Below are positions 13,608-64,000 of a DNA stretch of 64,000 nt, one piece after another. The position numbers and the translations under genes were made by a program. The DNA comes from an uncultured Pseudanabaenaceae cyanobacterium (lineage in GTDB: Bacteria > Cyanobacteriota > Cyanobacteriia > PCC-9006 > JAAUQQ01): assembly GCA_937949725.1 (NCBI GenBank), contig CALECT010000054.1, positions 19,213 to 83,212 on the forward strand. The letters run 5' to 3'. The notes beneath the pieces were generated by a model. The model was given only the letters and a program-made list of their open reading frames with translations. It did no database searches and was not told the origin of the DNA. Numbering within the stretch: the stretch's first letter is position 1; each line of letters opens with the position of its first letter.

Positions 13608-13633
13608 TCTCCACAGCAGTAAACCAAGAACCG

Positions 13634-42530: not shown

Positions 42531-42585
42531 CCCTTCAATCCAGTGGGATCTACCGTCAATCCTTGGTTTCCAGTGATCCCCAACG

Positions 42586-42624
42586 AAAAACCGCATGTTC
42601 CCAAGGGGGAGCGTGCGGTTTTTC
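42586..42624 (-). terminator. Bidirectional-type intrinsic terminator downstream of ilvB
   Basis: AAAAACCGCA (42586-42595) ... TGCGGTTTTT (42614-42623). A U-run follows the stem on both strands. It lies ~135 nt after the ilvB stop. Confidence 0.65.
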
Positions 42625-42759
42625 AATATTCGGAATTGAATTGGCAAAAACTAAAAAGTAACGAGAAATAAATGCTTAGAAATCTTCCGCAGCATTATTC
42701 CAATTTCTAGCTTTGCTGATCACCATCATCAAACTCGACTAGGAGGCTTGGTGATGTCC

Positions 42760-49623: not shown

Positions 49624-49676
49624 AGCCTGCTCATCTACTCAATCTCTTCTTTTTCAATCGTTTCTCCCTTCTGACC

Positions 49677-50042
49677 ATGAGCACCGCATTACTCGTTGAA
49701 GACAGTCTGACTGAAGTCGAAGTCATCACACGTTACCTCAAGGGCTTGGGCCTCCAGGTGCTTTGGGCTAATAGCTGTGAAGAAGCCAAGGAGCATCTCA
49801 GCAAGGGCACACCAGACTTAATTGTTTTGGATGTGATTCTCCCCGGCCAAAGTGGCTTTGAGCTTTGTCGTGAACTCAAGAGCGACCCCACCACGGACAG
49901 CATTCCTGTGATGATTTGCTCCACCAAGAATACTGAGACTGACAAGCTTTGGGGCGACATGCTTGGGGCCGATGCCTACTGTGCCAAGCCGGTGGATCCT
50001 CAAGAATTTGAAACCATCGTCCGCAAGCTCGTAAAGGCCTAA
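49677..50042 (+). CDS. CheY-like single-domain response regulator (PixH/PilH class)
   Basis: 121 aa. ALLVEDS, LIVLDVILPGQSGFELC and AKP. Confidence 0.9.
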   Translation: MSTALLVEDSLTEVEVITRYLKGLGLQVLWANSCEEAKEHLSKGTPDLIVLDVILPGQSGFELCRELKSDPTTDSIPVMICSTKNTETDKLWGDMLGADAYCAKPVDPQEFETIVRKLVKA

Positions 50043-50046
50043 AGCT

Positions 50047-50688
50047 ATGACGACCTCCTCTAACTTGGCCCCAGAAGGCCCCATTGCCCTGGAGGATAGC
50101 CCCGCTGAGCTGACCTCCGAAGCCACTGCTGGCCTAAAAAATTGGCTGAATCAAGGTAATGATACCGGCCAAAATCCCAGCGCCAACGCAGCGGTTCCCA
50201 CTGTTGAAGAACAGCGCCTCCTTCGCTTTTCCCTCCAAGGAAACGAGAGTGCTCTATTGCCTCTAGACAGTATTCAGGAAGTTTTGCAGGTGCCTAAGCG
50301 AGGCCTATTGCGGGTTCCCGGCATGCCTCGTTCCATCCTGGGAGTTTCGAATTGTAGAGGCTCCATTCTCTGGATGGTAGACCTGGCATTGCTCCTAGGC
50401 TTGGAGACAGCGCCCACTGCCTCCGCCGCCCAGCCCTGGCAGGCTCTCAATCGCGCCCAGCAATCCCTGAACACCATCACGATTCAAGCCGCAGGTGAGT
50501 CCCTCGGTCTGGTCGTTCCCAAGGTTATGGACATTGAAACCCATGCCACTAACCAAATCCAACCGCCATCTGCCGATTTGTTCTCCTCCCAACTGCTGCC
50601 TTTCCTCGCAGGCTATCTGACGCGTTCCTGTAGCCCTGTTTTTAGTGCCAGCGCCCTAATTGAACATCTCCAACTACAACGCTCATAA
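50047..50688 (+). CDS. CheW-like coupling protein (PixI/PilI class)
   Basis: CheW signature LLRFSL...[15 protein letters not shown]...[24 protein letters not shown]. The N-terminal ~55 aa look disordered. Confidence 0.8.
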
Positions 50689-50717
50689 CGCCTAGCTTCT
50701 TGCGAAGTTCCACAGCC

Positions 50718-53700
50718 ATGAAAATTTTCCAACGCCGTTCCCAGTCTGAGTCCCCCGCCAATGCAAGCGGCCCTAAGAAAATCGACGATCGCCTCCAGGA
50801 GGTTTTTGTCTACGACGAAGGCGAGCTACCCAATGCGGCTAGCGTTCAGAAGCGACCCCAACTCGCCGCTAGCAAGACTCAACCCAACGCAGCGCAGGCA
50901 TTGGAGGTGAGCCCCAACGGCAATTACGTCCAGAACTTACGCAAAAACGGCGGTGACCGCACCTATTCACCCAACTCATCAGCTCCAAACAGTCAAGGAT
51001 CTTCAGCAATGGCAGGCGACAACAGCAAATTCATCACAGTTCCCTACTCCCTCATGCCCGCCCAGGGCACTGGTCAGCCTCAAGAAAGTGCAGCGGATAA
51101 TATTCCCAATCGGCAGCAGATTGAAGAGGCTGTGATGACCGCTGTGCAGCAGCATGTGCGCACTGATGCGATGAATCAAGAAGGACTCAAACAGCTCCGA
51201 GCCCAGGTTCAAACCGTGGCTCTGGATATTCGCAGTGCCAAAGATCGCGAAGCAGTGATGAAAGCTGCGGTCTTTAAAACGCTGGAAGCCCTTGGGGCCG
51301 ATCGCGTTACGTTCTACCGCTGTACCTCCCCTGAACAGGGATTGGTAGAAGCCGAGGCTGTGGTTCAAGGCTGGACGCCAGCGCTGGGAGAGTATTTGCC
51401 CCTTGTCTTCCTGGGTAGCGGAGATATAGAGGACTATCAGAAGAATCAAGTCCTGGCCTTTAGTCGCGATCAGGAAATTGAGTTGTCGCCTTATCAGCAC
51501 CAGCTGATGGATAAGTATCAGGTCAAGGCCAGTCTGTCTTTACCTGTAGTACTCAATGAAAAACCCTGGGGTTTCCTAGTGGTTCATCAGTGCAAGCAGG
51601 AGCGCCAATGGCATGATTTTGAAATTGATCTGCTCTATCAGATCGTCACTGAAATTCGCCTGAAGCTGCAAGCGCTGGAATTTGAATTTGAATTTCAACA
51701 ACAGGTTGACCATGGCGCGGCCTTGGTTAAAGTCATTGAGCAGATTCAACGAGCTGAAGGAGTAGAGGGCATTTTCCGCACTGCCACCTCTGCCATTCGC
51801 AAAGCCCTGAATTGCGATCGCGCTGTCATCTATCAGTGCAACGAAGACTGGAGTGGAAAGGTAGTTGCCGAAGCCGTCGGCAAAGGCTGGGTTTCCATCC
51901 TCAAAGAACAGGAACGGGATCAAGCCTTTTGCAGCTACATCCTGCCGGACAATTGCTCCTTCGTAAACCTCTATCCCGATGATGAGCAAGTCATCACTTT
52001 CGAAAAGGACAATGCACTCTTCCGGGCCACCAATGGCGGTCAATTCAACCATGGCGTTCCCTACCGCAAGGTTGATGATGTCTATGCTATGGGCTTCTCG
52101 GATTGCTACATCGAGACCCTAGAGAAGTTCCAATGCCGGGCCTATATCCACGCCCCCATTTTCCAAGATGGCAAGTTCTGGGGCATTCTCTGCGCTTACC
52201 AAAACAGCGGTCCTCGCAAATGGACCATGGGTGAAGCCAGCTTGATGGTCAACTTGGCGACCCCGCTCAACACTGCCTTGCAAATGTCCCGCACGGTCCA
52301 GCAAGTCAAAGACCAAACGAACGAACTCTTTGAAGCCGCTAAGCGTGAACAACTGGCCAGCAGCATCATTGATCGCATTCGCGGCAGCTTTGACACGGAC
52401 CAGGTCTTCAAGGTGACGACGAAGGAAATTCGTCGCTTTATGAACTGCGATCGCGCCGTGATCTACAAATTCCATCAGGATTGGAGCGGTACTTTCGTGG
52501 CCGAGTCCGTGGGCTCTCGCCTCAACTCCATCCTGGGCAAAGGCTTCAGCGCTGACATGGGCAACTGCCACAGCCTCACCAGCCTACGTCCCGAGGGAAT
52601 GCCGCTGGATAGCCGGGATGTGAAAATTGCGGAAATCAGCATTAAGGAAGGCCGGGATTACAACCGCAGCGGTTTCTTCCTTGATGACATTGAGGCCCAT
52701 GACCTACCCGGCGACTTCATGGAAGCCATGGATGGCATTGGTGCCCGTGCCTATATGATGACCGGCATCTTCGTAGGGGACAAGCTGTGGGGAATGCTGG
52801 CGGTCTACCACGGTGAGATTCGTGCTTGGCAAGAAGGAGACCGTAAGCTGATTGCTCAAATTGCAACCCAGTGTGGTGTCGCCCTACAACAAGCCGAATT
52901 CGTCACAGAAATTCAACAGAAATCCGCCGAACTCAGCAGCGTTGTTTCCCGCGAGAAGGCAGCCAAGGAAGAATTCCAGCGGGAAGTTGTGGAACTGCTC
53001 CGCGCCGTCGCTCCCGCCCTGCGCGGTGACCTCACCGTTCGCGCCCCCGTCACCGAAGACGAAGTCGGCACCGTGGCCGACGCTTACAACAACACCATCC
53101 ACGCCCTGCGCAGCATCGTGGTCCAGGTGAAGGAAGCAGCGACCCAGGTTAGCTCCACTTCTAAGACCAGTGGTGAGGCGATCGCCCACCTCTCGAACAA
53201 GGCTCAAAAAGAAGTTCATGTGGTCCAGAAAGCTCTGACCGAAATTCAGAGCATGCAAGGCGCAACCGAAGAAGTGGTCACCACCGCCCAAGGGGTTGAA
53301 GCTGCGGTTCAGCAGGCCAACCAAGTGGTCAAGCGCGGTGACAACGCCATGGACCGTACTGTGGACGGCATCATGGCCATTCGCTCCACTGTGTCCGAGA
53401 CCAGCAAGAAGATTAAGCGCTTGAGCGAATCTTCTCAAAAGATTTCCCGCGTGGTCAGCCTGATTGGTGACTTCACCACCCAGACTCAGCTGCTGGCGCT
53501 GAATGCGGCAATTGAGGCGACCCGTGCTGGTGAATACGGCCGAGGTTTCGCAGTGGTGGCTGACGAAGTCCGCTCCCTGGCTCGCCAGTCCGCTGAAGCG
53601 ACGACGGAAATCGAGAAGTTGGTCCAGGAAATTCAGGCTGAAACCAGCGCGGTAACCCAGGCCATGGACACGGGCATTGACCAGGTGGTCAGCGGTACCA

Positions 53701-53957
53701 ACTTGGTGAACGAGACTCGCGATAGCCTGACGGAAATCGTCGAAGCCACCGCTCAAATCAGTAGCTTCGTCGAGGGCATCACCCTGTCTGCCAACAGTCA
53801 GTCCAAGCAGTTCAAGTCCGTTGCCGAGACCATGAACGGTGTGACTGAGCTGGCCTCCGAAACTTCTAAGGAATCCTTGGATATCTCCGATTCCTTTAAG
53901 GAACTGTTGACCACCGCTGAAGATCTCCAGGCCACCGTGGGCAAGTTCAAGGTCTAA
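50718..53957 (+). CDS. Soluble methyl-accepting chemotaxis protein with three GAF domains (PixJ/PilJ class)
   Basis: The C-terminal MCP signalling domain has [31 protein letters not shown]. There are three GAF-like modules ([46 protein letters not shown] and an upstream one) and a HAMP-like segment. I could not see a hydrophobic TM helix. ATG at 50718; the ORF-track start at 50700 is TTG. Confidence 0.9.
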
Positions 53958-53979
53958 CCAAACCCCGCAATCGGCAACT

Positions 53980-54074
53980 CGTAGGTTGGGTTGAAGCATG
54001 AAACCCAACAGGCCCAAGCCCAAGCTACCAAAGCCCAAGTTTGTTGGGGTTCGGAAGCCTCAACCCAACCTACG
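53980..54074. repeat. Compound imperfect hairpin / palindromic element in the MCP-CheA intergenic spacer
   Basis: Outer stem CGTAGGTTGGGTTGA (53980-53994) with TCAACCCAACCTACG (54060-54074). Inner stem AACCCAACA (54002-54010) with TGTTGGGGTT (54042-54051). The loop contains GCCCAAG three times. Confidence 0.7.
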
Positions 54075-54129
54075 TTAAGACTCTCTCTTCCACGCCCCGA
54101 CTCTTCCCGCCCTCTCCTCTCCTGCCGCT

Positions 54130-57100
54130 ATGTCCACCGATTCCTCCCTCCGCGAAGAAGCTTTTCCCTATTTCGTCAATGAGGCGACTGACCTGCTGCA
54201 AAACATTGAGCAGGATCTGTTGAGCTTGCGGGAAGACCGCACCTCCGCCCGTGTCCATAGCCTGATGCGCTATGCCCACACCCTTAAGGGTGCCGCGGCA
54301 ACTGTGGGTCTGGAAACGGTGAAGCATGTGGCCCACGTCCTAGAGGATGTCTTCCGCGCCCTCTACAATCCCGATATTGAAATCGACGACGAGGTCGAGG
54401 CCCTGCTGTTTGAGGGCTATGACTGCTTGCGCACGCCGCTGATGGCTGAGATCAACGGTAGCCCTGTTGATGAATCGGACATCTTCAATCGGGCAGCGGC
54501 GATCATTTCTCGGTTGCAGGACAAACTGGGCGATCTGTTTGACCGCGAAACCCCCATTCCCACAGCGGAAGAACTGGGCTTCGACGTGGTCAAGTCCATG
54601 TTTGAGGTGGGTGTGGAGCAGCGTCTCAATGCGTTGCAAACTGCCTTGGCGGATGGCACAGCTCCCGGTGAAATTGCCACAACGCTACAAACAACCTGCG
54701 AAGTTTTTTTGGGCCTCGCCGAATCTTTGCAACTGCCGGGCTTTGGTAGCATCGCTCAGCTCACCCTGGATGGCCTAGCCAGTCAACCCGGTAACTTGGT
54801 GCTATTACAACAGGCCTATGAGGACTTGCGAGCCGGTCAGCAGTTGGTGTTGGGGGGCGATCGCGAGCAAGGTGGGCAAGCCTCCGAAGCCCTGATGGCC
54901 CTAGCTTCTGGAACGGGCAATAGCGCAGCGAATAGTCCTGAAGCCAACATTACCGACGCGGGTGCTGCTGCAACTAAAATTCCTGACAACTTGCCCGACA
55001 ATCTCGACATTGGCGGATTGGAAGGTCTCTTTGGTGGACTTGGGGAAGCTCCTCCAGTCATTGCCTCCCAGGAACCCGTTGCCGAAGGTTTGGTTGCCAG
55101 TGCCGATGGGACTGACGTCGGTCCCGACATGCTGGACGGTCAACTTGAATCGCTGTTTGGTGATATCGAGGATGAAGACCCAGATGTCACCGTGCCAGAT
55201 TTATCGGCCATGGGTGCAGCCGCGATGGCTCCTAGGCCAATGGGCATGCCCAGTCCCGACGGGGAAGCCAGTATTCCCCCTATAGAGGCTCCCCTCGCTA
55301 GCCTGGATGATCTCTTTGGTGGCGTCGAATCTGCGGCCATTGCAGATACTTTCACTTCCCATGAAGAAGCAGAGGCTGCGACGGACCCCGCTGAAGCGGA
55401 AACGACAACGGAGGCGATTCAGCCAGCCGTCCCAGAACCCAGCCTAGCTAGCACCGCTGCTGCCGTAGCGCTTTCCCAAGCCCAGCCCGTCGCGAGCGAG
55501 TCCGCAGCCCAGCCCGAAAGCAATGCTGCTCCAGAAGCCCCCATAGCGCCTCAAAACCGTCGCAGCTCCAAAGCAGCAACTCTGATTTCTTCGGGGTCTA
55601 CAAAGGTGAGTCGGAACCGGGAATCTAAGGTAACCATGCGCGTGGGCTTAGACCAGGTGCTGCGCCTCGACCACCTTGTGGGTGAATTGCTCACCAACCA
55701 GATCCAGTCTTCGGAGCAAGACGATCAACTGCGCCAGGGCATTCTTGAACTGCTCTCCCAGTTACGCACCCACCGCCGCACCCTCAGCGACTTACAAACC
55801 GCTGCCCAGCAAATTGGCACAGACGAGTGGGGCTTTTCCAAAGCTCAGCGCGATGCCGATGCCCTAGCAAGCATTTCCCTCAACCCGAAAAAGGCGAAGG
55901 CCAAGCCCGCCCTAGCCATTCCTCAACTTCCCCCCCAGCGATCGCTCAGCGAGCAGTTTGATGCTTTGGAAATGGATCGCTACGGCGACCTCCATATCGT
56001 CACGCAAAAAGCACTCAACGAGTCTGTTCAGCTCGAGATCGTCATTGAGGCCCTTGCCCAACAAACGAAGCAGAATCGCCAAATTTGTGATGGCCGCCAA
56101 CGCCTCTTCCGCCAGTTGCGCGATGATTTAGCCTCTGTCCGTCTCAAGGCCGTCGGCGAACTCTTCAAGCGCTTCCCTCGGGTGCTACAGCAACTGAGTA
56201 CGACCTACGGTAAGCAAGTCGAACTGGGACTGTTTGGCCAGCATGTGTTGATCGACAAGGTCACCTTAGATTCTCTTTACGACTCCCTGCTGCATCTCAT
56301 TCGTAATGCCTTCGACCATGGCATTGAAACGGCTGAAGAACGTCAAGCTGCAGGCAAGTCTCCCAAGGGCAGAATTGAGCTTTCTGCTTACCAGCAGGGC
56401 AACCGCACGGTGATTGAGATTCGCGATGACGGTAAGGGGGTGAATTTGGAGCGCATTGCTGAGAAAGCGATCGCCCAGGACCTCCTCAGTGCCACCGAAG
56501 TGGAAGACGTCACCGAAGGGCAACTGCTGGAGCTGATGTTCCACCCCGGTTTCTCCACCGCCGCCTCCGTCAGCGACCTCTCCGGTCGGGGTGTGGGCCT
56601 GGATGTGGTGCGTTCCCAAATCGAATCTCTGGACGGCAGCCTCGCCATTCGCTCAGAAGCTGGAAAGGGGACCAGCTTTATCCTCCAGTTCCCCCTCGCC
56701 GTCACGATCACTAAGCAGTTGATTTGCCGCAGTGAAGGTACCACCTATGCAATTGCTGCCGATGCGATCGAGCAAGTGCTCTTGCCTCGCGGTGAGCAAC
56801 TGCGCACCCTCAACGATGGTCGCCAGATCTTGACCTTGCGCCAGGGTGACCAGGATTCGATTATTCCGGTGCTGAACCTGTCTGAGCTGGTGGACTATGT
56901 CCATCCCCCCACGGCGAACAATGACGGTGAAGCCGTGGTCATGCAGCCCGTACTCTTGGTTGCCTGTAGTGACGGCCTGCGAGGCATCCAAGTGGATCAA
57001 GTGCTGGGCGAGCAGGAGCTATCGATTCGTGCCATGGGCTCCACCGTCGAACCGCCAGCCTACATTCAGGGCTGTACCGTTTTGGGCGATGCCCACTTGG

Positions 57101-57606
57101 CCCTGGCCATTGAACCCAGCCTGTTGCTGGAGCAAGTTTGTGGCACAGGCAGCCAAACCAGCAGCATCTCCCTCAAGCGTCGTGAGACCAGCGAACTCAA
57201 AGACAGTGTTAGCCGTGCTCCCCGCGTCTTGATTATCGATGACTCCCTCACCCAGCGTCGCACTCTGGAACGCACTTTAACGAGTGTGGGTTATGACGTC
57301 ATCCAGGCAGAAGATGGCCTCGATGCCATGGTCAGTCTGCAAAAGAATGCCGATGTGGACTTGATCTTCTGCGACTTGGAAATGCCGCGCATGAATGGCT
57401 TTGAATTCCTCAGCCAGAGCCGCACCATTGAGGGTCTTACCGGTGTTCCCATCGCTATCCTCACCTCCCGCAGTGGCGGCAAATACCGACAGCTTGCCAT
57501 GGAGCTGGGTGCTTCGGAGTTCCTCAGCAAGCCCTATACGGACTATGAGTTGCTCAAGACAGCGACTCAATTGCTGGAGAAGAAAATGGCAGTTCCCCAA
57601 TCCTAA
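54130..57606 (+). CDS. Hybrid CheA-type histidine kinase (Hpt, long acidic linker, dimerisation/HATPase, CheW-like, receiver), PixL/PilL class
   Basis: Hpt YAHTLKGAAATVGL; HATPase N/G boxes HLIRNAFDHGIE, DDGKGV and GRGVGLDVV; CheW-like region; C-terminal receiver VLIIDDSLTQRR...LIFCDLEMPRMNGFEF...SKP. Confidence 0.93.
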   Translation: MSTDSSLREEAFPYFVNEATDLLQNIEQDLLSLREDRTSARVHSLMRYAHTLKGAAATVGLETVKHVAHVLEDVFRALYNPDIEIDDEVEALLFEGYDCLRTPLMAEINGSPVDESDIFNRAAAIISRLQDKLGDLFDRETPIPTAEELGFDVVKSMFEVGVEQRLNALQTALADGTAPGEIATTLQTTCEVFLGLAESLQLPGFGSIAQLTLDGLASQPGNLVLLQQAYEDLRAGQQLVLGGDREQGGQASEALMALASGTGNSAANSPEANITDAGAAATKIPDNLPDNLDIGGLEGLFGGLGEAPPVIASQEPVAEGLVASADGTDVGPDMLDGQLESLFGDIEDEDPDVTVPDLSAMGAAAMAPRPMGMPSPDGEASIPPIEAPLASLDDLFGGVESAAIADTFTSHEEAEAATDPAEAETTTEAIQPAVPEPSLASTAAAVALSQAQPVASESAAQPESNAAPEAPIAPQNRRSSKAATLISSGSTKVSRNRESKVTMRVGLDQVLRLDHLVGELLTNQIQSSEQDDQLRQGILELLSQLRTHRRTLSDLQTAAQQIGTDEWGFSKAQRDADALASISLNPKKAKAKPALAIPQLPPQRSLSEQFDALEMDRYGDLHIVTQKALNESVQLEIVIEALAQQTKQNRQICDGRQRLFRQLRDDLASVRLKAVGELFKRFPRVLQQLSTTYGKQVELGLFGQHVLIDKVTLDSLYDSLLHLIRNAFDHGIETAEERQAAGKSPKGRIELSAYQQGNRTVIEIRDDGKGVNLERIAEKAIAQDLLSATEVEDVTEGQLLELMFHPGFSTAASVSDLSGRGVGLDVVRSQIESLDGSLAIRSEAGKGTSFILQFPLAVTITKQLICRSEGTTYAIAADAIEQVLLPRGEQLRTLNDGRQILTLRQGDQDSIIPVLNLSELVDYVHPPTANNDGEAVVMQPVLLVACSDGLRGIQVDQVLGEQELSIRAMGSTVEPPAYIQGCTVLGDAHLALAIEPSLLLEQVCGTGSQTSSISLKRRETSELKDSVSRAPRVLIIDDSLTQRRTLERTLTSVGYDVIQAEDGLDAMVSLQKNADVDLIFCDLEMPRMNGFEFLSQSRTIEGLTGVPIAILTSRSGGKYRQLAMELGASEFLSKPYTDYELLKTATQLLEKKMAVPQS

Positions 57607-57730
57607 AGACGAAGCTTTAACTTGACCCCAAGGCATTCAATCCAACGGGGGATCAGGTCTGATTGGTTTTTTATTCCCTAGTCACATCCCGCTTAGGCAA
57701 GTCCGTTACCTATTCTCCTTCCCACAGACC

Positions 57731-58177
57731 ATGACCCATATTGACGCCAATTCCACCTGCAAAGCCGTGGTTTTCGATGCCGCTGGTTTTCGTTTTGCCC
57801 TGCCGCTCAATAGCATCGGTCGTATTGTTCACCGTGGGCTGCTCCAGGAAGATCCCAAAGTAAAGGATCTGCTGTATTTCGAAAATGAGCCCCTGGAGGT
57901 CGTGGATTTGGTGCAGTTACTGGCACCTGGGACTACAGCAAGTCAATCAGATTTCTTTGTGATGACCGAGGTGGGACGACGCTTGGCGATCGCGGCTGAA
58001 GCGCCCCCCATGATGATGGAGTTACCTCTGAATGGGGTTCACAATGTGCCTTCGGTTTATCAGCAGAGCCTTCATGGCCTGGCCCAGCAAATGATTATGG
58101 TGGGGGAAGCTGATGCTACCAGCAGTGTTTTTCTCTTGGATCTGCAACAGCTTGGGCAATTGGCGATCGCTGCGTAA
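57731..58177 (+). CDS. Second, divergent CheW-like protein
   Basis: 148 aa. VVFDAAGFRFALPLNSIGRIV ... EPLEVVDLVQLL resembles a CheW fold, but the match is weaker than for the first CheW. Confidence 0.6.
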   Translation: MTHIDANSTCKAVVFDAAGFRFALPLNSIGRIVHRGLLQEDPKVKDLLYFENEPLEVVDLVQLLAPGTTASQSDFFVMTEVGRRLAIAAEAPPMMMELPLNGVHNVPSVYQQSLHGLAQQMIMVGEADATSSVFLLDLQQLGQLAIAA

Positions 58178-58382
58178 CCTCCACCAGACCCTAGCAGTCA
58201 AGGTTATTTGGCGTGAACTTATTCGCCCATCGCATCGTCAAATTTACAGAGCTTTCAGGAATTTCCCTCCCAGAATGGGTTGTTTATCCTGGGGACGTTC
58301 CCACGACTGGCTTGCAGTCTAGGGCGAACAGGCATTACCGCGATTCCCGAGACCAACAGCTAATCCTATTCACAGCTAACCC

Positions 58383-60035
58383 ATGAGTTTTATTCGTAAG
58401 AGCGCGATCGCCCTGGTTGGAGCTACCGCGATCGCGGGTGGTGCCGGAGCCTATGTTTATTTCAACGGTCTACCCGGTGGCGGTGGCGGCGAAGGACTCT
58501 ATGGCAGTGCCGAGATTATTCCCGATGACGCCATGGCGGCTGTGGCCCTGACCAATAATGCTGAGGCCTGGAAGAACCTCGGTAACTTTGGCAGTGCGGC
58601 GACCCAAGCCCAGGCAGATGAGACTCTGCAAGACTTCAAACAATCTTTTTTAGATGACACGGGCCTGTCCCTGGACGATGACATTCTGCCCTTGCTAGAT
58701 GGCGTGGTTGTGGCGCTGTTGCCTCCCACCAGCGTTGAATCTGCTGATGCGCCGGAAATGCTGGCGGTGATTAGCACTAACAATCCCCTCAAGGCGTTGC
58801 AGCTACTGACTAAGGCTAGGGATGGCGGTGAAGTCCAGATTGAAACCAGCGAGCACCAGGGCGTAACGCTGTCTGAAATTACGCCTCCCGAAGGTGGCAA
58901 GCTTTACAGCGCCGTGCTCAAGCAGCGCCTGGTCATTGCCCCGACCCGCCGACCTGTGGAAATGGCGATTGAAACCAGCAGGGGCGACGACTCCTTGGCA
59001 GATCTTCCCCAGGCAGCCCAGGCTCTTAAAGGCAGCGATGATTCGGTGGTGCGTCTCTACATCCCTGACTACGGCGATCTGCTCACCAATGTCATCGCTC
59101 TCTCTCCCGATGCACCTCCACTCCCTCCAGAAACCCTGGAGCAGTTGGGCAAGATCGACAGCATCGTCGCAGGCCTGAGCATCGAAGCGGAAGGTCTACG
59201 CCTTAAAGCGACCAGCGAACTTGACCCCTCCCTGCGCCCCGCAGATTACAAAGCAGGCCAAGGTGATGCAGTGGATCGTTTCCCTGCCAACACTGTTGCC
59301 TTCTTCAACGGCCAAGGCATCAGTCAGTCCTGGGACAAGATGCTGGAGCAATCCGAAGCTATACCCGAAAGCGCGCAGGTTTTTGAGCTGATGCGTAATG
59401 CTTCCCAGCAGATTGATGTGGACTTGGATGAGGATGTCTTTAGCTGGATGACGGGCGAGTTTGCCTTTGGGATCGTGCCGGTTGAGGAAGGTCTTGTTGG
59501 TCAGTTGGGCATGGGCGCGGTGTTTGTGATGGACAGCGGCGATCGCCCCGCCACGGAAGCGCTGTTTACCAAGCTGGACAAGCTGGCCGCAGGCAATCAG
59601 GTCAAAGTGGATGAAAAGAGCGTGGGCAAGCAATCCATCACTGCTTGGGGTGCCCCCATTCCCGGTAACGATGAAACCGTTGTCGGTCGTGGTTGGCTGG
59701 ATGAGGATTCCATGTTCCTCGCCACGGGCGATAGTTTGGTGGCCAACATGAGTGAGCCCCCTGCTGAGAATCTGCCCAGCAATCCCGTTTTCCAGAACAT
59801 CATGGCGGAGTTGCCTAAGAATGGAATGGGCTATGGGTTTGTCAATGTAGAGCAGGCGTTAGCATTGGCATTGAACTCTCCCATGCGTAGCCAAGTGGAC
59901 CCTCAAGTTACGGAGTTGTTGCGCATGGTGGAAGGCGTGGGCATGACCTCTAGCTGGGAGAAGGCGGAGACTTCTGAGGTGGAGTTCTTTGTTTCGCTCA
60001 AGTCTGAAGAGGAGCTAGAAGCCGCTGCAAAGTAA
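58383..60035 (+). CDS. Conserved cyanobacterial membrane-anchored protein (probably DUF3352)
   Basis: 550 aa. N-terminal anchor AIALVGATAIAGGAGAYVYF followed by a large acidic soluble domain. The family call is from memory. Confidence 0.7.
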   Translation: MSFIRKSAIALVGATAIAGGAGAYVYFNGLPGGGGGEGLYGSAEIIPDDAMAAVALTNNAEAWKNLGNFGSAATQAQADETLQDFKQSFLDDTGLSLDDDILPLLDGVVVALLPPTSVESADAPEMLAVISTNNPLKALQLLTKARDGGEVQIETSEHQGVTLSEITPPEGGKLYSAVLKQRLVIAPTRRPVEMAIETSRGDDSLADLPQAAQALKGSDDSVVRLYIPDYGDLLTNVIALSPDAPPLPPETLEQLGKIDSIVAGLSIEAEGLRLKATSELDPSLRPADYKAGQGDAVDRFPANTVAFFNGQGISQSWDKMLEQSEAIPESAQVFELMRNASQQIDVDLDEDVFSWMTGEFAFGIVPVEEGLVGQLGMGAVFVMDSGDRPATEALFTKLDKLAAGNQVKVDEKSVGKQSITAWGAPIPGNDETVVGRGWLDEDSMFLATGDSLVANMSEPPAENLPSNPVFQNIMAELPKNGMGYGFVNVEQALALALNSPMRSQVDPQVTELLRMVEGVGMTSSWEKAETSEVEFFVSLKSEEELEAAAK

Positions 60036-60052
60036 ATCGGGCAAAAGACGCC

Positions 60053-60099
60053 TAGACCAAGACACCCAGTGTTTTAGAAACACTGGGTGTCTTGGTCTA
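60053..60099. repeat. Perfect 21-bp inverted repeat (very stable hairpin)
   Basis: TAGACCAAGACACCCAGTGTT (60053-60073), 5-nt loop, AACACTGGGTGTCTTGGTCTA (60079-60099). It lies 18 nt after the preceding stop, and no U-run follows. Confidence 0.9.
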
Positions 60100-60185
60100 A
60101 TTAGAGTGAATCTCAGACCATGAAGGCATAAGTGCTATCGGTCGAACTCAGGTGATTCGCAATTTCTACTTGAGTAATATTTTCG

Positions 60186-60366
60186 TCACTTGCTCGCGTT
60201 GACAGCATTGGCTCTGATGCCCTTTAGCTGCTTTTGTTTGGGGGCAATGACGGTGTAGCTAACGTTGAGGGTGTCGCCTTCTTTTACATCGATGTTGACG
60301 TGGAAGGGGACTAAGGCTGGCGCAGGCGGTTAGCAGGCTGAGCTGGCGAAAGGAGAGGCGTGGCAT
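60186..60366 (-). pseudogene. Possible frameshifted small lipoprotein gene
   Basis: The minus-strand ATG at 60366 gives MPRLSFRQLSLLTACASL (lipobox-like LTAC). The plausible continuation ...PFHVNIDVKEGDTLNVSYTVIAPKQKQLKGIRANAVNASK* is in the +1 frame. The total span is 181 nt, which is not a multiple of 3. Confidence 0.25.
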
Positions 60367-60777
60367 GGTTCGCTGGTTTACCCGGAGTGTTTAGATTTAG
60401 GGTGTCCTAGTTAGCCTTAGGAAAAATTCTCTGAAGGAAGTTCTAGGAATGCTGCTTTAGTTCCGGCTTTGTTGGGTCTACATTCGTTTGAAGCCAATTT
60501 CTAAAGCAGTTGAAAATATTGATACTTCAGGATTTTTCACGTATTTCTGATGATTGTTCCAATTTTGATCGTATTAAATAACACGGTGGTTTAGCTCTGG
60601 ATAATCAGATTTATTCCTGTTGACTACTATTTTTCTGGCAATAGTACGGGGTAGCTGATGTTTAGAACAATAGTTGTTAAATGGTCTCCTAAGAAACTCT
60701 TTTAGTTAGACATATTGGACTAAGCTTTTTAGCAAAGATTCAGGCATTAGCCTTCCACTTCGGCGTGAAGCATCATA

Positions 60778-63042
60778 ATGAATACAGTCTCCAAAGGGCA
60801 GGAGAAGCAAGTACTTTCATCGGATGGTGAAGTATCCTTTTTACCCCTTTCCTTGCTGTCCACAAGTCGTAGAGAGTTCTACGATGGTAAGCATAGAAAG
60901 CCTGGTGAGCGATCGCTTCAGCTCACGGTAAAAGCCGGCCTAAGTGATGAATTGACAGAACTACCAGCTGACCTGATTGGTTCAATGTTTATGATTGCAC
61001 CAGCGGGCTTAGTAGACTCTCCCAAAGTGGAGGGAACTGATACTATTTTGCCCACTCAAGATGGTTGGACGCATCTATTAAACGGTGATGGGATGGTGTA
61101 TAGAGTTGACTTTGGACAGCCAAAGCCAAAGTTTTCATGTCGACTGATGAGCAATGTTTCTTACTATGCCGATAAAATTACTCATCAAAAATACCCAGTC
61201 CTGAAATTTGTTACCTTTGGGATTGCGCGCTTGTCAAACTATATTGGAGCAAGCAATCAGTCAAATACTGCTTTTCTAAAATTTTCTGATGAGTCAAATA
61301 ATTCAAATCGACTATTGGTTACTTCTGATGTGGAGAGGCCTATTGAAATTAATCCAAGTTCACTACGCATAATTGCTCCTGTTGGTTTAAATCGAGAATG
61401 GGAAGCCCCGCTAAAAATTGCTTCTAAAAACAAACCAATTCAAAGTATTCTGACCACTGCTCATTTAGTGACTGAACCTGATTCCAATAATATTATTACC
61501 ATTAACGTTGTGAAATCTTTATGGAAATTAGTCACAACATCATTACTGAAAGCATTGTCTTCTAATGGATCTCGAATGAGGTCCTTGAAGTTCTTTTCTA
61601 AAATCTTGTTTTTGTTATTCAAAATTGCTGATCCATTTGTTTCATGGCTACTTAAAGTACTAGATATAGATTCATCTGAAAAACTTTACCTATTACGATG
61701 GAATAGTGAGACTGATGATGTGGAACGATGGGAGGTCTTACTATCAAATGGTTGTTCAATTCCTATTGAACAAACAGTGCATCAAATGGGGATTACAGAA
61801 GACTATATAGTCTTTGCGGATACAGCTTTTAAAGTCGCATTTTCATCGACTTTACCTGGTCCAGATGCTTCTCAGGAAATGGAAGAATCTCAACAAAATT
61901 TTTTCTCTTGGCTGCGTTTGCATCGAAAATACCTGAATTTTCCACTTCGGCAAGATACTGCTTTATATATTGTTAGTAGAAAACAGTTTGACGAAATTAA
62001 ACCTGGTGGCACTTTAGTAGCTCAGAAAGTGCTCTTATTAGATGCAGCTATAGTTCATTATCAAGTAGATTATCGAAACCCAGATGGGAATATACATCTT
62101 CATGCTGCCTTAAATCAAGCAACAGATTTCTCTGAATTTTTGCATTCAAAGGATTCTTGTGTATTTAAAGACTCTGAGACTTTAACTCGTGCTTCTAGGA
62201 TGGCAGGTATGTTCTCTGGTGGAATGAAAGTCAATCGACCTAAAACATATGTTATTGATGTTGATTTGGGAAAAGTAATTCATGAGACAAGCATCTCGCT
62301 TGATGATGCTTACAAATATACATTCTCTCTGGGAGCCGCTGCATTTAAAGACGATACCCCAACTCAGCAGTATAAGGATATTTATTGGAGTAACGTTGGG
62401 GCTTGGCCTGAAATCATACTAGAAGATCTGGCTGATCTATATAAATCTCCAAAAGAAAAAGAGACAAGAGAATTTAAGAGATTCTTAACCCAGATGCAAT
62501 CCGGAGTACCAACCTCTATTTGCCGTATACATATTGATCAATCTCAAGAGTATCCCGCTATATCAGTAGCTGATTCTTATCAATTTCCTGTTGCAAACAA
62601 AATCGCTTACTACGGTAATTCACCCCAGTTTGTCCCTAGACCTAATACAACTCAATCCACTGATGGTTATATTGTTTGCTCTGTAAACTATTCTGATCAA
62701 GCTTGTTCTGCCTCTGAAGACCATGAGAATTTTAGAAATTCATGGTCTAGAAATAGTGAGATTTGGATTTTTGATGCTGAAAAACTAAATCAGGGACCTC
62801 TCTATCGTTTAAGCCATGCCCAATTAAATTTTGGTATGACTATACATACTACTTGGCTTAAGAAGATTGTGTCTCCAATTAAACAACGAAAATATGATGT
62901 GAGTAAAGACTTTGAACATCTCGTAGCTTCTGCTATGGAATCTCACTCTACAAATAATCCCTATGAAGCTAAGCTAATTAGTCAGCTATTTCAGGAGATT
63001 TATGCCGAGATAGAAAAAGAACAGGGTGAAGCTAATTCTTGA
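60778..63042 (+). CDS. Oversized divergent carotenoid-oxygenase (RPE65/CCD) superfamily protein, paralogue 1
   Basis: 754 aa. CCD-like landmarks LNGDGMVYRVDF, NTAFLKF...RLLVTSDVERPIEINPSSLRIIAPVG, TAH229LVTEPD, VH335QMGITEDYIVFAD, IVH427YQVDY, DGYIVCSV...EIWIFDAEKLNQGPLYRL...GMTIH690TTW. Confidence 0.8.
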   Translation: MNTVSKGQEKQVLSSDGEVSFLPLSLLSTSRREFYDGKHRKPGERSLQLTVKAGLSDELTELPADLIGSMFMIAPAGLVDSPKVEGTDTILPTQDGWTHLLNGDGMVYRVDFGQPKPKFSCRLMSNVSYYADKITHQKYPVLKFVTFGIARLSNYIGASNQSNTAFLKFSDESNNSNRLLVTSDVERPIEINPSSLRIIAPVGLNREWEAPLKIASKNKPIQSILTTAHLVTEPDSNNIITINVVKSLWKLVTTSLLKALSSNGSRMRSLKFFSKILFLLFKIADPFVSWLLKVLDIDSSEKLYLLRWNSETDDVERWEVLLSNGCSIPIEQTVHQMGITEDYIVFADTAFKVAFSSTLPGPDASQEMEESQQNFFSWLRLHRKYLNFPLRQDTALYIVSRKQFDEIKPGGTLVAQKVLLLDAAIVHYQVDYRNPDGNIHLHAALNQATDFSEFLHSKDSCVFKDSETLTRASRMAGMFSGGMKVNRPKTYVIDVDLGKVIHETSISLDDAYKYTFSLGAAAFKDDTPTQQYKDIYWSNVGAWPEIILEDLADLYKSPKEKETREFKRFLTQMQSGVPTSICRIHIDQSQEYPAISVADSYQFPVANKIAYYGNSPQFVPRPNTTQSTDGYIVCSVNYSDQACSASEDHENFRNSWSRNSEIWIFDAEKLNQGPLYRLSHAQLNFGMTIHTTWLKKIVSPIKQRKYDVSKDFEHLVASAMESHSTNNPYEAKLISQLFQEIYAEIEKEQGEANS

Positions 63043-63117
63043 TATCTCATATTGTTTGAGTAAGGTAGATAAAGGAATAGCTCAGTGACGGATGTATTTG
63101 AATTTTTCGATGTTGAT

Positions 63118-64000
63118 ATGAAGCCTATACAGCAACTTGAAATGGCCTCATTGCCTCAGTCACTTTTGTCCAATAGTCGCATCGAATATTATGATGAGCC
63201 TTCGAGAGATAGAGATCAATGCTCACTAATACTGACAATTAAATCTGGCTTGTCAGACAACTTGACGGTTCTTCCCGATGACTTACAAGGGCATTTTTTT
63301 GTTGTCGGACCTTCAGGAGCTATAGACTCAAATGTAATGACTAATTCAGATAGCATCTTGCCTGCTCAAAATGGTTGGACCTCTGTTCTAAATGGAGATG
63401 GGATGGTTTATAGAATTGACTTTTCTTCAGGTCAAGCTAGACTTTCTTCTCGACTTCTCAAGACAGTCTCATCTTATGCTGACAGCATATCCCATCAAAA
63501 GTATCCTTTACTGAAATTTTTGAGTTATGGAATAACTCGAATATCTGAATATATTGGGATCTGCGATCAGTCAAATACTGCTTTTTTACCTCTTGGACAA
63601 AAGCAAAATACTGCTGATAGCTTGTTAGTGACATGGGATATGGGAAGACCTCTGGAAATTGATCCTGTTTCCTTAAAAACAATTGGTCCTGTTGGTTCTA
63701 ATCAGCATTGGCGAGAAGTTGCAAAATTTATGTTTACTTTTCAGCCTCTTGTTCTCAAATTTATTATGTCTTCTGCTCACCCCATTTACATACCTGAAAG
63801 TGGTGACGTTTTTGCGGTAAACGTAGTTAAGTCGATTCGTGAGATTGTTGGGTTATCTCAGCTATGGGAACGAGGCTATCAGTTAGCAGTAGCAAAATTT
63901 AAGCGAATCAGGTTTTCTAAAAGAATGCTGAGGCTTGCTTTTACCTTAAGTCATTCTGTTATTGATCTTGGAATTAGATGCCTTAAAATGCTCAAATTCC
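63118..64000 (+). CDS. Carotenoid-oxygenase superfamily protein, paralogue 2 (truncated by the window end)
   Basis: This ORF is not in the track because it is open-ended. My translation from the ATG at 63118 runs without a stop to 64000: MKPIQQLEMASLPQSLLSNSRIEYYDE...LNGDGMVYRIDF...NTAFLPL...LLVTWDMGRPLEIDPVSLKTIGPVG...SSAHPIYIPESG... It is about half identical by eye to paralogue 1. An in-frame GTG at 63085 is an alternative start. Confidence 0.75.
   Translation, partial: MKPIQQLEMASLPQSLLSNSRIEYYDEPSRDRDQCSLILTIKSGLSDNLTVLPDDLQGHFFVVGPSGAIDSNVMTNSDSILPAQNGWTSVLNGDGMVYRIDFSSGQARLSSRLLKTVSSYADSISHQKYPLLKFLSYGITRISEYIGICDQSNTAFLPLGQKQNTADSLLVTWDMGRPLEIDPVSLKTIGPVGSNQHWREVAKFMFTFQPLVLKFIMSSAHPIYIPESGDVFAVNVVKSIREIVGLSQLWERGYQLAVAKFKRIRFSKRMLRLAFTLSHSVIDLGIRCLKMLKF

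What the first reader, a model, noticed from the sequence alone, without database searches (positions are those of the whole stretch)
60420..64000. Low-GC island carrying tandem, highly divergent carotenoid-oxygenase-superfamily paralogues
From about 60.4 kb the composition drops sharply. My hand counts of sample lines give mid/high-30s to low-40s % GC, against 50-63% in the core lines I sampled. The otherwise recurrent HIP1 motif appears only once here. The island holds two adjacent same-strand genes (60778-63042 and 63118 to beyond 64000) that are about half identical to each other. Both carry the hallmark strand motifs of the RPE65/CCD seven-bladed propeller family. The second gene is missing from the ORF track because it runs off the window. 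No integrase or transposase is visible in the part I can see, and the right boundary is unknown. Tandem duplication, foreign composition and unusual size together suggest an acquired, diversifying enzyme pair whose substrate is unknown (apocarotenoid, stilbenoid or other).
Basis: partly seen in the sequence, partly recalled or inferred. Interest (0 to 1): 0.75.

Follow-up and report, generated by a model that had tools for sequence, protein, structure and literature searches.

The report
Low-GC cassette with paired long carotenoid-oxygenase homologues
A sharply bounded, AT-rich 6.5-kb gene cassette in a cyanobacterial genome carries two old, intact copies of an unusually long and uncharacterised branch of the carotenoid-cleavage oxygenase family; it was probably acquired from another cyanobacterium, and its substrate is unknown.

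Summary
GC falls from 0.53 to 0.37-0.39 at about 60.42 kb. GC3 is 0.28-0.37 against 0.61, and the tetranucleotide distance is 14-18 sd from the window background. Public contigs matching the window (identical, or 2 mismatches in 11.7 kb) show the block ends at window-equivalent 66.92 kb.

The block holds four same-strand genes: CCO1 (754 aa), CCO2 (756 aa, 46% identical), a DUF4345 membrane protein and a DUF4336 protein. Both CCOs pass the Pfam RPE65 cut-off and keep the four iron-binding histidines and three glutamates. CCO1 models confidently as a CCO propeller with about 270 extra residues.

They are not orthologues of ACO, RPE65 or lignostilbene dioxygenases. They belong to a small, almost purely cyanobacterial "long" branch. 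In that branch tandem pairs (16 of 79 loci) and natural two-unit fusions (8 of 79) recur. Conserved neighbours are giant kinase-AAA_16-GAF sensors or TPS/CHAT proteins.

The pair is old: orthologous CCO1-CCO2-DUF4345 occurs elsewhere at 59-71% identity. Three relatives share the upstream operon but lack the cassette. There are no mobility genes, tRNA or flanking repeats, and HIP1 is as enriched inside as outside once composition is allowed for.

Best reading: a cassette acquired from a low-GC cyanobacterium.

The parts
58383..60035 (+). DUF3352 gene. This is the last host gene syntenic with relatives and defines the left anchor of the variable junction.
   Evidence: PF11832, E 1.7e-120. blastn synteny with L084, L085, L086 and L087 ends at 60022-60039.
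60053..60099 (.). Perfect 22-nt inverted repeat with a 3-nt loop just after DUF3352. It is a likely terminator hairpin and is host side, not part of the island.
   Evidence: Inverted repeat I1 (L001 5466-5512 = window 60053-60099). It is terminator-like on the - strand.
60100..60419 (.). Spacer with host-like GC (0.45-0.535) that is not shared with any relative. It holds only short broken ORFs, including a 35-aa lipoprotein-signal-like ORF at 60259-60366 (-).
60420..60777 (+). AT-rich (GC 0.33-0.38) upstream leader of CCO1 and left edge of the low-GC block. No Rfam family matches and no significant promoter call was made.
   Evidence: Homology to the L082 cassette begins only at the CCO1 start codon.
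60778..63042 (+). CCO1: 754-aa 'long' carotenoid-cleavage-oxygenase homologue. It has the 4-His/3-Glu iron centre (H229, H335, H427, H690; E190, E453, E661). Extra elements are a hydrophobic helical hairpin at about 248-294, extra helices at 355-386 and 549-575, and a C-terminal helical extension at 708-753.
   Evidence: PF03055 84.8 bits. Residue conservation. AF2 pLDDT 86.3, pTM 0.89. Foldseek top hits are ACO, RPE65, LSD, CAO1 and NinaB at E 1e-20 to 1e-17.
63085..64000 (+). CCO2, N-terminal 305 codons; the gene continues to window-equivalent 65355 (756 aa). It is a paralogue of CCO1 (46% identity) with the same catalytic residues. It probably starts at GTG 63085, with ATG 63118 as the alternative.
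60420..64000 (+). In-window part of the 6.5-kb low-GC cassette. The remainder, from matching public contigs L001 and L002, holds three things: the rest of CCO2; DUF4345 (139 aa, window-equivalent 65452-65871); and DUF4336 (238 aa, 66190-66906). The block ends in the 42-bp spacer before a convergent, host-composition CHAT-TPR gene (66949-69501, - strand).

Best explanation
What it is. The block is a four-gene, same-strand accessory cassette: CCO1, CCO2, DUF4345 and DUF4336. It spans about 6.5 kb at GC 0.38-0.44 inside a cyanobacterial chromosome of about 53% GC. It lies between the end of a che-type operon/DUF3352 gene and a convergent CHAT-TPR gene.

The enzymes. CCO1 and CCO2 are both intact members of a deeply divergent 'long' branch of the carotenoid-cleavage-oxygenase (RPE65, PF03055) superfamily. 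Each has a seven-bladed propeller carrying a 4-His Fe(II) site backed by three glutamates. Each also has about 270 extra residues, including a hydrophobic helical hairpin and a C-terminal helical extension.

Inferred mechanism. Each unit binds Fe(II) and O2 and cleaves a C=C bond of a lipophilic substrate taken from the membrane, giving aldehyde or ketone products. The most likely substrate is a carotenoid or apocarotenoid. The two units probably act together, as a heterodimer or in consecutive cleavages, because pairs and end-to-end fusions of two units recur throughout the subfamily.

Inferred history. The cassette, with the paralogues already paired, was most likely acquired by horizontal transfer from a lower-GC cyanobacterium at a recombination-prone junction. 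No dedicated mobility machinery is present.

Shown: composition, boundaries, family, fold, catalytic residues, orthologous cassette elsewhere, absence at the syntenic site in relatives.

Inferred: enzymatic activity, substrate class, cooperation of the two units, direction and timing of transfer.
For: Composition and boundaries.

Both junctions are spanned by separate assemblies. L001 is a Logan contig with 2 mismatches in 11,676 nt. L002 is an ENA contig identical over its overlap with the window.

Family and fold:
- PF03055 scores 84.8 and 110.3 bits against a cut-off of 27.
- AF2 gives pLDDT 86.3 and pTM 0.89.
- Foldseek PDB hits are all CCOs: ACO, RPE65, LSD, CAO1, NinaB. E values are 1e-20 to 1e-17 and target TM about 0.65-0.70.
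- The His motifs align to NOV1 His167, His218 and His476.
- HHHH is kept in all 128 complete units. E190, E453 and E661 are kept in nearly all units, and in both window proteins.

Pairing:
- 16 tandem pairs and 8 fused double units (1,331-1,462 aa ORFs) occur in 79 genome loci.
- Three fused representatives of 1,431-1,540 aa occur in the 1.84-billion-protein library.
- Both halves of the fusions keep the catalytic residues.

Old orthologous cassette:
- L082 has a CCO1 orthologue followed by a CCO2 orthologue.
- L083 has the CCO1 orthologue, P0005 and DUF4345 (64% identity).
- Both are at GC 0.39-0.40, and L082 has an upstream flank at GC 0.53.

Acquisition:
- Relatives with DUF3352 at 87%, 83% and 79% identity share 74-82% nucleotide identity across the che operon.
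- They diverge immediately after the DUF3352 stop codon and have no CCO there.
- Across the family the gene normally matches host GC (mean difference -0.005). In the window's near clade it is 0.03-0.13 below its neighbours.
- HIP1 is as enriched inside as outside after correcting for composition, which indicates a cyanobacterial donor.
- A few family members are plasmid-borne.
Against: - There is no integrase, transposase, tRNA, att-like direct repeat or inverted repeat at either edge.
- The region after DUF3352 differs in every relative, so the comparison shows a variable junction rather than a clean empty site.
- The host genome's taxonomy is unknown, and its own species representative was not among the genomes scanned.
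- No donor could be named. The best composition-normalised tetranucleotide correlation was 0.46, against 0.59 for host chunks against the rest of the host.
- All near-clade genes are lower in GC than their hosts despite 40-55% amino-acid divergence. This could mean an old acquisition with poor amelioration, or some gene-specific constraint, rather than a recent event.
- Activity, substrate and heteromer formation are untested.
- Sequence identity to any characterised CCO is only 10-14%.
- The NJ tree has no support values.
Confidence: 0.68

Rival explanations
1. The cassette is a long-resident, vertically inherited part of the flexible genome. Its low GC is maintained (old acquisition with little amelioration, or selection on the genes or their expression), not a sign of recent transfer into this genome.
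For: Every near-clade CCO gene is lower in GC than its neighbours: L003 0.424 against CHAT 0.556; L008 0.427 between genes at 0.526 and 0.525; L092 0.437 against 0.543. This holds although these genes differ by 40-55% in protein sequence. HIP1 enrichment inside the island equals that of the host. No mobility signatures are present.
Against: Family members in high-GC hosts (L012, L013, L045, L049, L069) have host-like GC of 0.51-0.56, so there is no intrinsic need for AT-richness. Three relatives lack the cassette at the syntenic site. The window's cassette is the most AT-rich of its clade (0.378 and 0.390). Composition-normalised tetranucleotide usage also departs from the host (r 0.32 against 0.59 +/- 0.04).
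Confidence: 0.22
2. The two proteins are CCO-fold enzymes whose substrate is not a carotenoid. It could be a stilbenoid or phenylpropanoid, a polyene natural product or a lipid-derived alkene. Alternatively, they are not oxygenases at all but isomerases or binding proteins, as RPE65 is. In this reading their products or ligands serve the signalling or cell-surface systems that flank their relatives.
For: Relatives are immediately flanked by Pkinase-AAA_16-GAF giants (33 of 79 loci), cyclase-AAA_16-TPR proteins (6), TPS-domain proteins (21) and CHAT-TPR proteins (4), not by carotenoid genes. By profile the best sequence matches in the PDB are stilbene-cleaving enzymes (5v2d, NOV1; E about 1e-8) rather than ACO (about 1e-5). 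Weak NCBIfam hits go to lignostilbene dioxygenase models.
Against: Those hits are far below the family cut-offs (18 bits against 650-800). Foldseek ranks ACO and RPE65 first. An ABA4-like (PF14108) gene sits next to the CCO in six loci; in plants, by general knowledge, ABA4 is linked to neoxanthin synthesis. Cyanobacteria are rich in carotenoids, and the hydrophobic hairpin suits uptake of a membrane substrate. The full 4-His/3-Glu centre is that of the cleaving enzymes; however, RPE65 keeps it too.
Confidence: 0.3
3. The low-GC block is a metagenome assembly or binning chimera that joins DNA of a low-GC organism into a higher-GC contig.
For: The source is a metagenome-derived contig, and the compositional steps are abrupt.
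Against: The block is flanked on both sides by host-like, HIP1-rich DNA, so two independent mis-joins would be needed. The left junction is spanned by a Logan assembly of run ERR9287622 (L001; 2 mismatches in 11,676 nt) and the right junction by ENA assembly ERZ6864376 (L002). The edges coincide with intergenic spacers, and all genes are intact.
Confidence: 0.03

Closest known systems
Synechocystis sp. PCC 6803 apocarotenoid-15,15'-oxygenase (ACO/Diox1; PDB 2BIW, 4OU9)
   Same: It is the best structural match (Foldseek E 1e-20, target TM about 0.70). It is also cyanobacterial. It shares the seven-bladed propeller, the 4-His Fe(II) centre with three second-shell Glu, and a hydrophobic surface element for membrane substrates.
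   Different: Identity is only 13-14%, and phmmer finds no significant sequence match. ACO is about 490 aa against 754/756 aa. ACO has no C-terminal helical extension or long helical hairpin. It is not known (general knowledge) to occur as a paralogue pair or fusion. The gene context is different.
Stilbene/lignostilbene-cleaving oxygenases (NOV1 5J53, LsdA 6OJW, P. brassicacearum LSD 5V2D, CAO1 5U8X)
   Same: They give the best profile-to-sequence matches (E about 1e-8). The His motifs align (TAHP.., HDFGITEDY....LHGNW). The fold is the same.
   Different: NCBIfam LSD equivalog models score 16-18 bits against cut-offs of 650-800. Identity is 12-13%. No evidence was obtained here for the phenol-binding residues of stilbene cleavers.
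RPE65 and NinaB (animal retinoid isomerohydrolase / isomerooxygenase)
   Same: They share the fold and the iron centre. They associate with membranes through a hydrophobic or amphipathic element. RPE65 gives its name to the Pfam family that both proteins hit.
   Different: Identity is 10-12%. They are eukaryotic, about 530 aa, with a different inserted element, and nothing is shared in genomic context.
Uncharacterised 'carotenoid oxygenase family protein' entries of cyanobacteria (for example Acaryochloris marina 912 aa, Coleofasciculaceae MAG 749 aa) and of Parashewanella tropica and Sorangium
   Same: These are true homologues over the full length (29-41% identity, over 90% coverage). They have the same long architecture and the same catalytic residues.
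   Different: They are annotated by family name only, and no paper on them was found in the held library. Most sit next to Pkinase-AAA_16-GAF or TPS/CHAT genes. The window cassette lacks those neighbours and instead carries DUF4345 and DUF4336.

Membership tests
Carotenoid cleavage oxygenase / RPE65 superfamily (PF03055) | Significant full-length match to the family profile | tested here: met
   CCO1 scores 84.8 bits over profile positions 20-468 of 469. Full-length CCO2 scores 110.3 bits over 21-468. The cut-off is 27.
Carotenoid cleavage oxygenase / RPE65 superfamily (PF03055) | Four conserved histidines that ligate Fe(II) | tested here: met
   H229, H335 and H427 are invariant and H690 is at least 90% conserved in A1. 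HHHH is present in all 128 complete units. Three of the motifs align to NOV1 His167, His218 and His476.
Carotenoid cleavage oxygenase / RPE65 superfamily (PF03055) | Three second-shell glutamates that hold the histidines | tested here: inconclusive
   Three glutamates (E190, E453, E661) are conserved in nearly all units, in the expected order relative to the histidines.
Carotenoid cleavage oxygenase / RPE65 superfamily (PF03055) | Seven-bladed beta-propeller fold with a helical cap | tested here: met
   The AF2 model has pLDDT 86.3 and pTM 0.89. All 50 listed Foldseek PDB hits are CCOs, with E 1e-20 to 3e-17.
Carotenoid cleavage oxygenase / RPE65 superfamily (PF03055) | O2-dependent cleavage (or isomerisation) of a conjugated C=C substrate | not testable with these tools
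   This requires enzyme assays.
Characterised cyanobacterial CCOs (ACO/Diox1, Diox2, NSC1-3/NosCCD) - orthology | Close sequence relationship and comparable length (about 480-520 aa) | tested here: not met
   phmmer against PDB sequences finds no ACO hit (the best hit is RPE65, E 0.69). The profile gives ACO only E 1e-5 over 100 residues. Structural identity is 13-14%. Length is 754/756 aa. Only 435 clusters at 50% identity reach E <= 1e-3 among 1.84 billion representatives.
Lignostilbene-alpha,beta-dioxygenase (NCBIfam NF053778 / NF053780) | Score above the equivalog cut-off | tested here: not met
   Scores are 16.6-18 bits against cut-offs of 650-800.
Horizontally acquired genomic island | Composition and codon usage atypical for the host | tested here: met
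   GC is 0.37-0.40 against 0.529 +/- 0.021. GC3 is 0.28-0.37 against 0.609 +/- 0.051. Tetranucleotide z is 14-18. The TETRA correlation is 0.32 against 0.59 +/- 0.04.
Horizontally acquired genomic island | Absent from the syntenic position in related genomes | tested here: met
   L084, L086 and L087 (DUF3352 at 87%, 79% and 83% identity) share the upstream operon, and L085 (a short contig of the L084 lineage) confirms where synteny ends. None has a CCO downstream. Caveats: the downstream region differs in all of them, and the relatives are not very close.
Horizontally acquired genomic island | Mobility signatures (integrase or transposase, tRNA target, flanking direct repeats) | tested here: not met
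   None was found in 54.6-69.5 kb. There is no phage match, and only three distant megaplasmid homologues.
Horizontally acquired genomic island | Gene tree incongruent with the species tree | tested here: inconclusive
   The nearest homologues are in uncultured Pseudanabaenaceae MAGs and in short unassigned contigs. The host taxonomy is unknown and the NJ tree has no support values.

The most novel reading that the evidence does not exclude
The long CCO units may be obligate two-unit enzymes (heterodimers, or fused pseudo-dimers with two iron sites). Their cleavage product, an apocarotenoid-like aldehyde, would act as a dedicated small-molecule signal. In most cyanobacteria this signal would be read by the adjacent Pkinase-AAA_16-GAF or cyclase-AAA_16 STAND-type sensors, or would be coupled to CHAT protease/TPS-secreted protein systems. 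That would be a previously undescribed oxygenase-linked signalling or cell-cell conflict module. The window cassette would be a mobile, stand-alone 'producer' version of that module (CCO1-CCO2 with a membrane protein and a DUF4336 protein) that moves between cyanobacteria.
Probability: 0.12. Interest if true: 0.8.

Novelty: new variant of a known kind. Interest (0 to 1): 0.5.

Why it matters
Carotenoid-cleavage oxygenases make retinal, plant hormones (abscisic acid, strigolactones) and aroma compounds. In cyanobacteria only a few short (about 480-aa) enzymes have been studied.

This window belongs to a separate, cyanobacteria-wide branch for which no study was found in the held library. The branch has five unusual features:
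- The proteins are half again as long as typical family members.
- The catalytic centre is strictly conserved.
- Paralogue pairs and two-unit fusions occur repeatedly.
- The genes are tightly linked to giant signalling proteins or to CHAT/TPS genes.
- At least one clade is compositionally foreign to its hosts.

Finding the substrate and product could reveal a new apocarotenoid (or other alkene-derived) metabolite or signal in cyanobacteria. It could also give the first example of a two-unit CCO.

The island itself is an ordinary accessory cassette. Its main value is as a compact, expressible pair (CCO1+CCO2) on which to test these ideas.

Tried and rejected
- Scan of metagenome contigs with a near-clade alignment. 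It gave only three distant loci (27-33% identity) and no new cassette.
- Search for a tRNA, an Rfam element or riboswitch in the 360-bp AT-rich leader, and flanking direct or inverted repeats. None was found; the only repeats are the paralogous gene segments at about 2,310-2,331 nt spacing.
- Promoter and terminator scans. Counts were at chance level and are uninformative.
- PADLOC defence models for all cassette proteins, the CHAT gene and a TPS neighbour. No hit.
- Phage collection. No hit.
- Plasmids. Only three distant megaplasmid hits.
- Naming the host or donor. Cluster look-up returned no names. The TETRA comparison with flanks of 70-odd cyanobacterial loci gave no match at self level.
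- Structure prediction of DUF4336. A sequence search of the PDB for it was empty.
- Literature. No paper on this long CCO branch, its fusions or its neighbours was found. DUF4336 and DUF4345 appear only in gene lists.
- Considered and rejected: functional linkage to the adjacent CHAT-TPR gene in the window. That gene is convergent, has host composition, lacks the signal peptide seen on the CHAT proteins upstream of near-clade CCOs, and is only 31% identical to them over the CHAT domain.
- Considered and rejected: HIP1 depletion as evidence of a non-cyanobacterial origin.

Full report
OBSERVATION

The compositional drop is real and large. Per-kilobase GC is 0.44-0.585 over positions 1-60000 and 0.366-0.380 over 61001-64000. 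With 200-nt windows the step lies at about 60400-60450. In 3-kb windows the background is 0.529 +/- 0.021, against 0.372 at 61001-64000. The tetranucleotide distance from the window background is 14-18 sd above the mean.

The effect sits at synonymous positions. GC3 of the island genes is 0.28-0.37, against 0.609 +/- 0.051 in 35 background ORFs. A codon-adaptation index trained on the window's own genes gives z = -3.3 to -4.5. Composition-normalised tetranucleotide usage also departs from the host: the correlation is 0.32, against 0.59 +/- 0.04 for host chunks of the same size.

There is one site in the in-window part (60909) and a second at window-equivalent 65710. The inference drawn from it is not correct. 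Given base composition, 0.03 sites are expected in the island and 1.2 in the rest. The observed 2 and 70 are therefore 64-fold and 58-fold enrichments. The island DNA carries the cyanobacterial HIP1 signature to the same relative degree as the host.

EXTENT

The exact proteins occur on public contigs that extend past the window.
- L001 is a Logan assembly of run ERR9287622. It covers window-equivalent 54588-66263 with 2 mismatches in 11,676 nt.
- L002 is ENA assembly ERZ6864376. It covers 61024-69504 and is identical over its overlap with the window.

These contigs show that the low-GC block ends at about 66920. That point falls in the 42-nt spacer between the last cassette gene and a convergent CHAT-TPR gene of host composition (GC 0.570, GC3 0.679).

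The block is therefore about 6.5 kb and holds four same-strand genes:
- CCO1, 60778-63042, 754 aa.
- CCO2, 63085-65355, 756 aa.
- A DUF4345 membrane protein, 139 aa (PF14248, 49.9 bits).
- A DUF4336 protein, 238 aa (PF14234, 76.4 bits).

No tRNA, Rfam family, integrase or transposase is present. There is no flanking direct or inverted repeat. A perfect 22-nt hairpin at 60053-60099 closes the upstream DUF3352 gene.

WHAT THE TWO LARGE GENES ARE

Both pass the Pfam RPE65 gathering threshold over the whole profile: 84.8 and 110.3 bits against a cut-off of 27. They are 43% identical over the in-window part and 46% over the full length.

In a 26-sequence alignment H229, H335 and H427 are invariant and H690 is nearly so. 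In 128 complete units drawn from 79 genomes the four histidines are always present, and E190, E453 and E661 almost always. A profile of the family aligns three of the histidine motifs to His167, His218 and His476 of NOV1.

An AlphaFold2 model of CCO1 is confident, with pLDDT 86.3 and pTM 0.89. All 50 listed Foldseek hits in the PDB are carotenoid, apocarotenoid or stilbene oxygenases or RPE65/NinaB. E values run from 1e-20 to 3e-17, target TM is about 0.60-0.71 and identity only 10-14%.

The roughly 270 extra residues form three kinds of element:
- a hydrophobic helical hairpin at about 248-294, with lower confidence;
- additional helices at 355-386 and 549-575;
- a C-terminal helical extension at 708-753.

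Superfamily membership is therefore well supported. Orthology to any characterised enzyme is not.
- phmmer against PDB sequences gives nothing significant.
- The NCBIfam lignostilbene dioxygenase models score 16-18 bits against cut-offs of 650-800.
- Only 435 clusters at 50% identity, out of 1.84 billion representatives, reach E <= 1e-3.

THE SUBFAMILY

A scan of one genome per species found 234 relatives, almost all cyanobacterial. The best 79 loci were kept. The proteins are typically 690-800 aa.

Pairs are a recurring theme:
- 16 loci have two complete adjacent units.
- 3 have a second, partial or disrupted copy.
- 8 have a single ORF of 1,331-1,462 aa made of two complete units joined end to start. 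These are Scytonema NIES-4073, Aetokthonos hydrillicola, Brasilonema, Iphinoe, Stigonema and others.

Three further fused representatives of 1,431-1,540 aa exist in the protein library. Both halves keep the catalytic residues.

In an NJ tree without support values, the first and second units of the Nostocales and Oscillatoriales pairs and fusions fall into two old clades. Other pairs (L019, L030, L012/L013 and the window's) arose separately.

Neighbours are strongly conserved. Within 1 kb of the CCO:
- 33 of 79 loci have a roughly 1,800-aa Pkinase-AAA_16-GAF(-PAS-GGDEF or kinase) protein, almost always immediately downstream on the same strand.
- 6 have an adenylate/guanylate cyclase-AAA_16-TPR protein immediately upstream.
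- 21 have a roughly 860-aa TPS-domain (filamentous haemagglutinin N-terminal) protein.
- 4 have a CHAT-TPR protein.

Six loci carry an ABA4-like gene (PF14108). I found no paper describing this branch or these associations in the held library.

THE WINDOW'S CLADE AND THE AGE OF THE PAIR

CCO1 and CCO2 belong to a near clade of at least five subgroups that are about 45-53% identical to one another. Single-copy members of this clade sit in a CHAT -> CCO -> TPS arrangement (L003, L004, L091, L092). DUF4336 (64% identity) or DUF4345 (59%) lies nearby.

CCO1's nearest relative is P0002 (59%) and CCO2's is P0005 (71%). Cross-comparisons are 46-48%. On their contigs these relatives are arranged as in the window. 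L082 has the CCO1 orthologue followed by a CCO2 orthologue (60% over the 114 aligned residues). L083 has the C-terminus of a CCO1 orthologue, then P0005, then DUF4345 (64%).

The CCO1-CCO2-DUF4345 cassette is therefore an old, conserved unit, not a fresh duplication. CCO1 has diverged faster than CCO2. That is the only support for 'diversifying'.

ACQUIRED OR NOT

Across the family the CCO gene normally matches its host: the mean GC difference is -0.005, and genes in high-GC hosts have GC of 0.51-0.56. In the near clade it is always 0.03-0.13 below its neighbours. The window's cassette is the most AT-rich, at 0.378 and 0.390. L082's cassette is also at GC 0.40, with an upstream flank at 0.53.

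Homologues of the flanking DUF3352 protein at 87%, 83% and 79% identity lie on contigs L084, L087 and L086. These contigs share the whole upstream che-type operon with the window at 74-82% nucleotide identity. Similarity stops within a few bases of the DUF3352 stop codon (60022-60039). Downstream each genome carries different genes and no CCO.

This supports acquisition at a variable junction. It is not a clean empty site, because no relative joins DUF3352 to the CHAT-TPR gene. The 60100-60419 spacer (host-like GC, no homologue) is also unexplained.

No donor could be named. The HIP1 result points to another cyanobacterium. A chimeric assembly is unlikely. Host-like DNA flanks both sides, and separate assemblies span each junction.

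MECHANISM (INFERRED)

With an intact 4-His/3-Glu centre and a confident CCO fold, each protein most likely binds Fe(II) and O2 and cleaves a carbon-carbon double bond of a lipophilic substrate. The hydrophobic hairpin would serve membrane docking, as the hydrophobic patches of ACO and RPE65 do (general knowledge).

A carotenoid or apocarotenoid is the default substrate in a cyanobacterium. The ABA4-like neighbours of some relatives fit this weakly. Nothing here excludes a stilbenoid or other alkene.

The recurrence of pairs, the independent origins of several pairs and the end-to-start fusions suggest that two units work together. This is a Rosetta-stone style inference. It was not tested, because the pair exceeds the size limit of the structure tool.

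The roles of DUF4345 (a small membrane protein) and DUF4336 are unknown. The window's 69.5 kb contains none of the TPS, kinase, cyclase or ABA4-like partners seen elsewhere. The adjacent CHAT-TPR gene looks like a chance neighbour.

VERDICT

The island itself is an ordinary accessory cassette. The interesting part is the uncharacterised long-CCO branch to which it belongs. I rate it a new variant of a known kind, with interest 0.5.

Noticed in passing
L053 7631-11971 (Scytonema sp. NIES-4073), L055 843-5228 (Aetokthonos hydrillicola), L066, L068, L071, L075, L077, L078; proteins P0027, P0028, P0030: There are natural single-ORF fusions of two complete long-CCO units (1,331-1,540 aa), joined end to start with almost no linker. 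Both halves keep the 4-His/3-Glu residues. No description of double CCOs was found in the held literature.
   Followed up: partly
33 of 79 loci, e.g. L059 12188-17716, L065 2896-8604 (Microcystis wesenbergii), L072 12230-17761 (Calothrix sp. PCC 7716): A giant Pkinase-AAA_16-GAF(-PAS-GGDEF or other output) protein of about 1,750-2,100 aa lies 18-455 nt downstream of the long CCO on the same strand. This holds across Nostocales, Oscillatoriales and Microcystis. In six loci (L031, L033, L034, L043, L045, L049) a cyclase-AAA_16-TPR protein of about 1,300 aa lies 52-483 nt upstream; L038 has a contig-truncated AAA_16 protein in the same upstream position. The linkage is conserved and its meaning is unknown.
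   Followed up: partly
21 of 79 loci, e.g. L004 8378-10972, L005 12303-14894, L008 12259-14829, L012 12265-15042; also L091 4747-7395: A TPS-domain (filamentous-haemagglutinin N-terminal) protein of about 860 aa lies directly next to the CCO. It is either downstream on the same strand or upstream and divergent. In near-clade loci a signal-peptide-bearing CHAT-TPR protein sits on the other side, giving CHAT -> CCO -> TPS. No PADLOC model matches.
   Followed up: partly
L020, L024 9220-9696, L027, L032, L037, L039: An ABA4-like (PF14108) small membrane protein is encoded near the long CCO in six Pleurocapsa-like or related loci, and sits just upstream of it in L024. This is the only carotenoid-flavoured neighbour seen.
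   Followed up: no
window 60100-60419: A 320-nt stretch of host-like GC lies between the DUF3352 terminator hairpin and the island edge and has no counterpart in any relative. On the - strand a 35-aa ORF (60259-60366) begins like a lipoprotein signal (…LLTACAS…). Its continuation reads on in another frame, so it may be a gene remnant at the junction.
   Followed up: no
window 48400-60035 and loci L084, L086, L087: A conserved che/tax-type operon ends at the island's left flank. Its order is response regulators, CheW, GAF-HAMP-MCP, hybrid CheA (Hpt-HATPase-CheW-receiver, 54130-57606), a CheW-like protein (57731-58177) and DUF3352. What follows DUF3352 differs in every relative, so this is a synteny breakpoint.
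   Followed up: partly
L087 7911-11749: In the relative with DUF3352 at 83% identity, the variable region downstream holds an XisA/phage-integrase-like gene and a DUF3854/DUF3987 (primase-helicase-like) gene. Mobile DNA therefore does target this neighbourhood in the lineage, although the window has none.
   Followed up: no
window 41722-42759 and 23245-23781: Two other AT-rich dips (GC about 0.44 per kb) are gene-poor intergenic stretches with only short ORFs, not further islands.
   Followed up: partly
L057 6946-8337 and 10049-10630 (Microseira wollei NIES-4236); L028 12241-13613: Second CCO copies are split or truncated. In L057 the two halves of one unit are separated by about 1.7 kb. This suggests that some pairs are decaying.
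   Followed up: no
L008 9929-12217 versus its neighbours at 7005-9245 and 12259-14829: A single near-clade CCO gene at GC 0.427 sits between genes at 0.526 and 0.525. The compositional anomaly can therefore be confined to the CCO gene alone, which hints at gene-sized replacement or a gene-specific bias.
   Followed up: no
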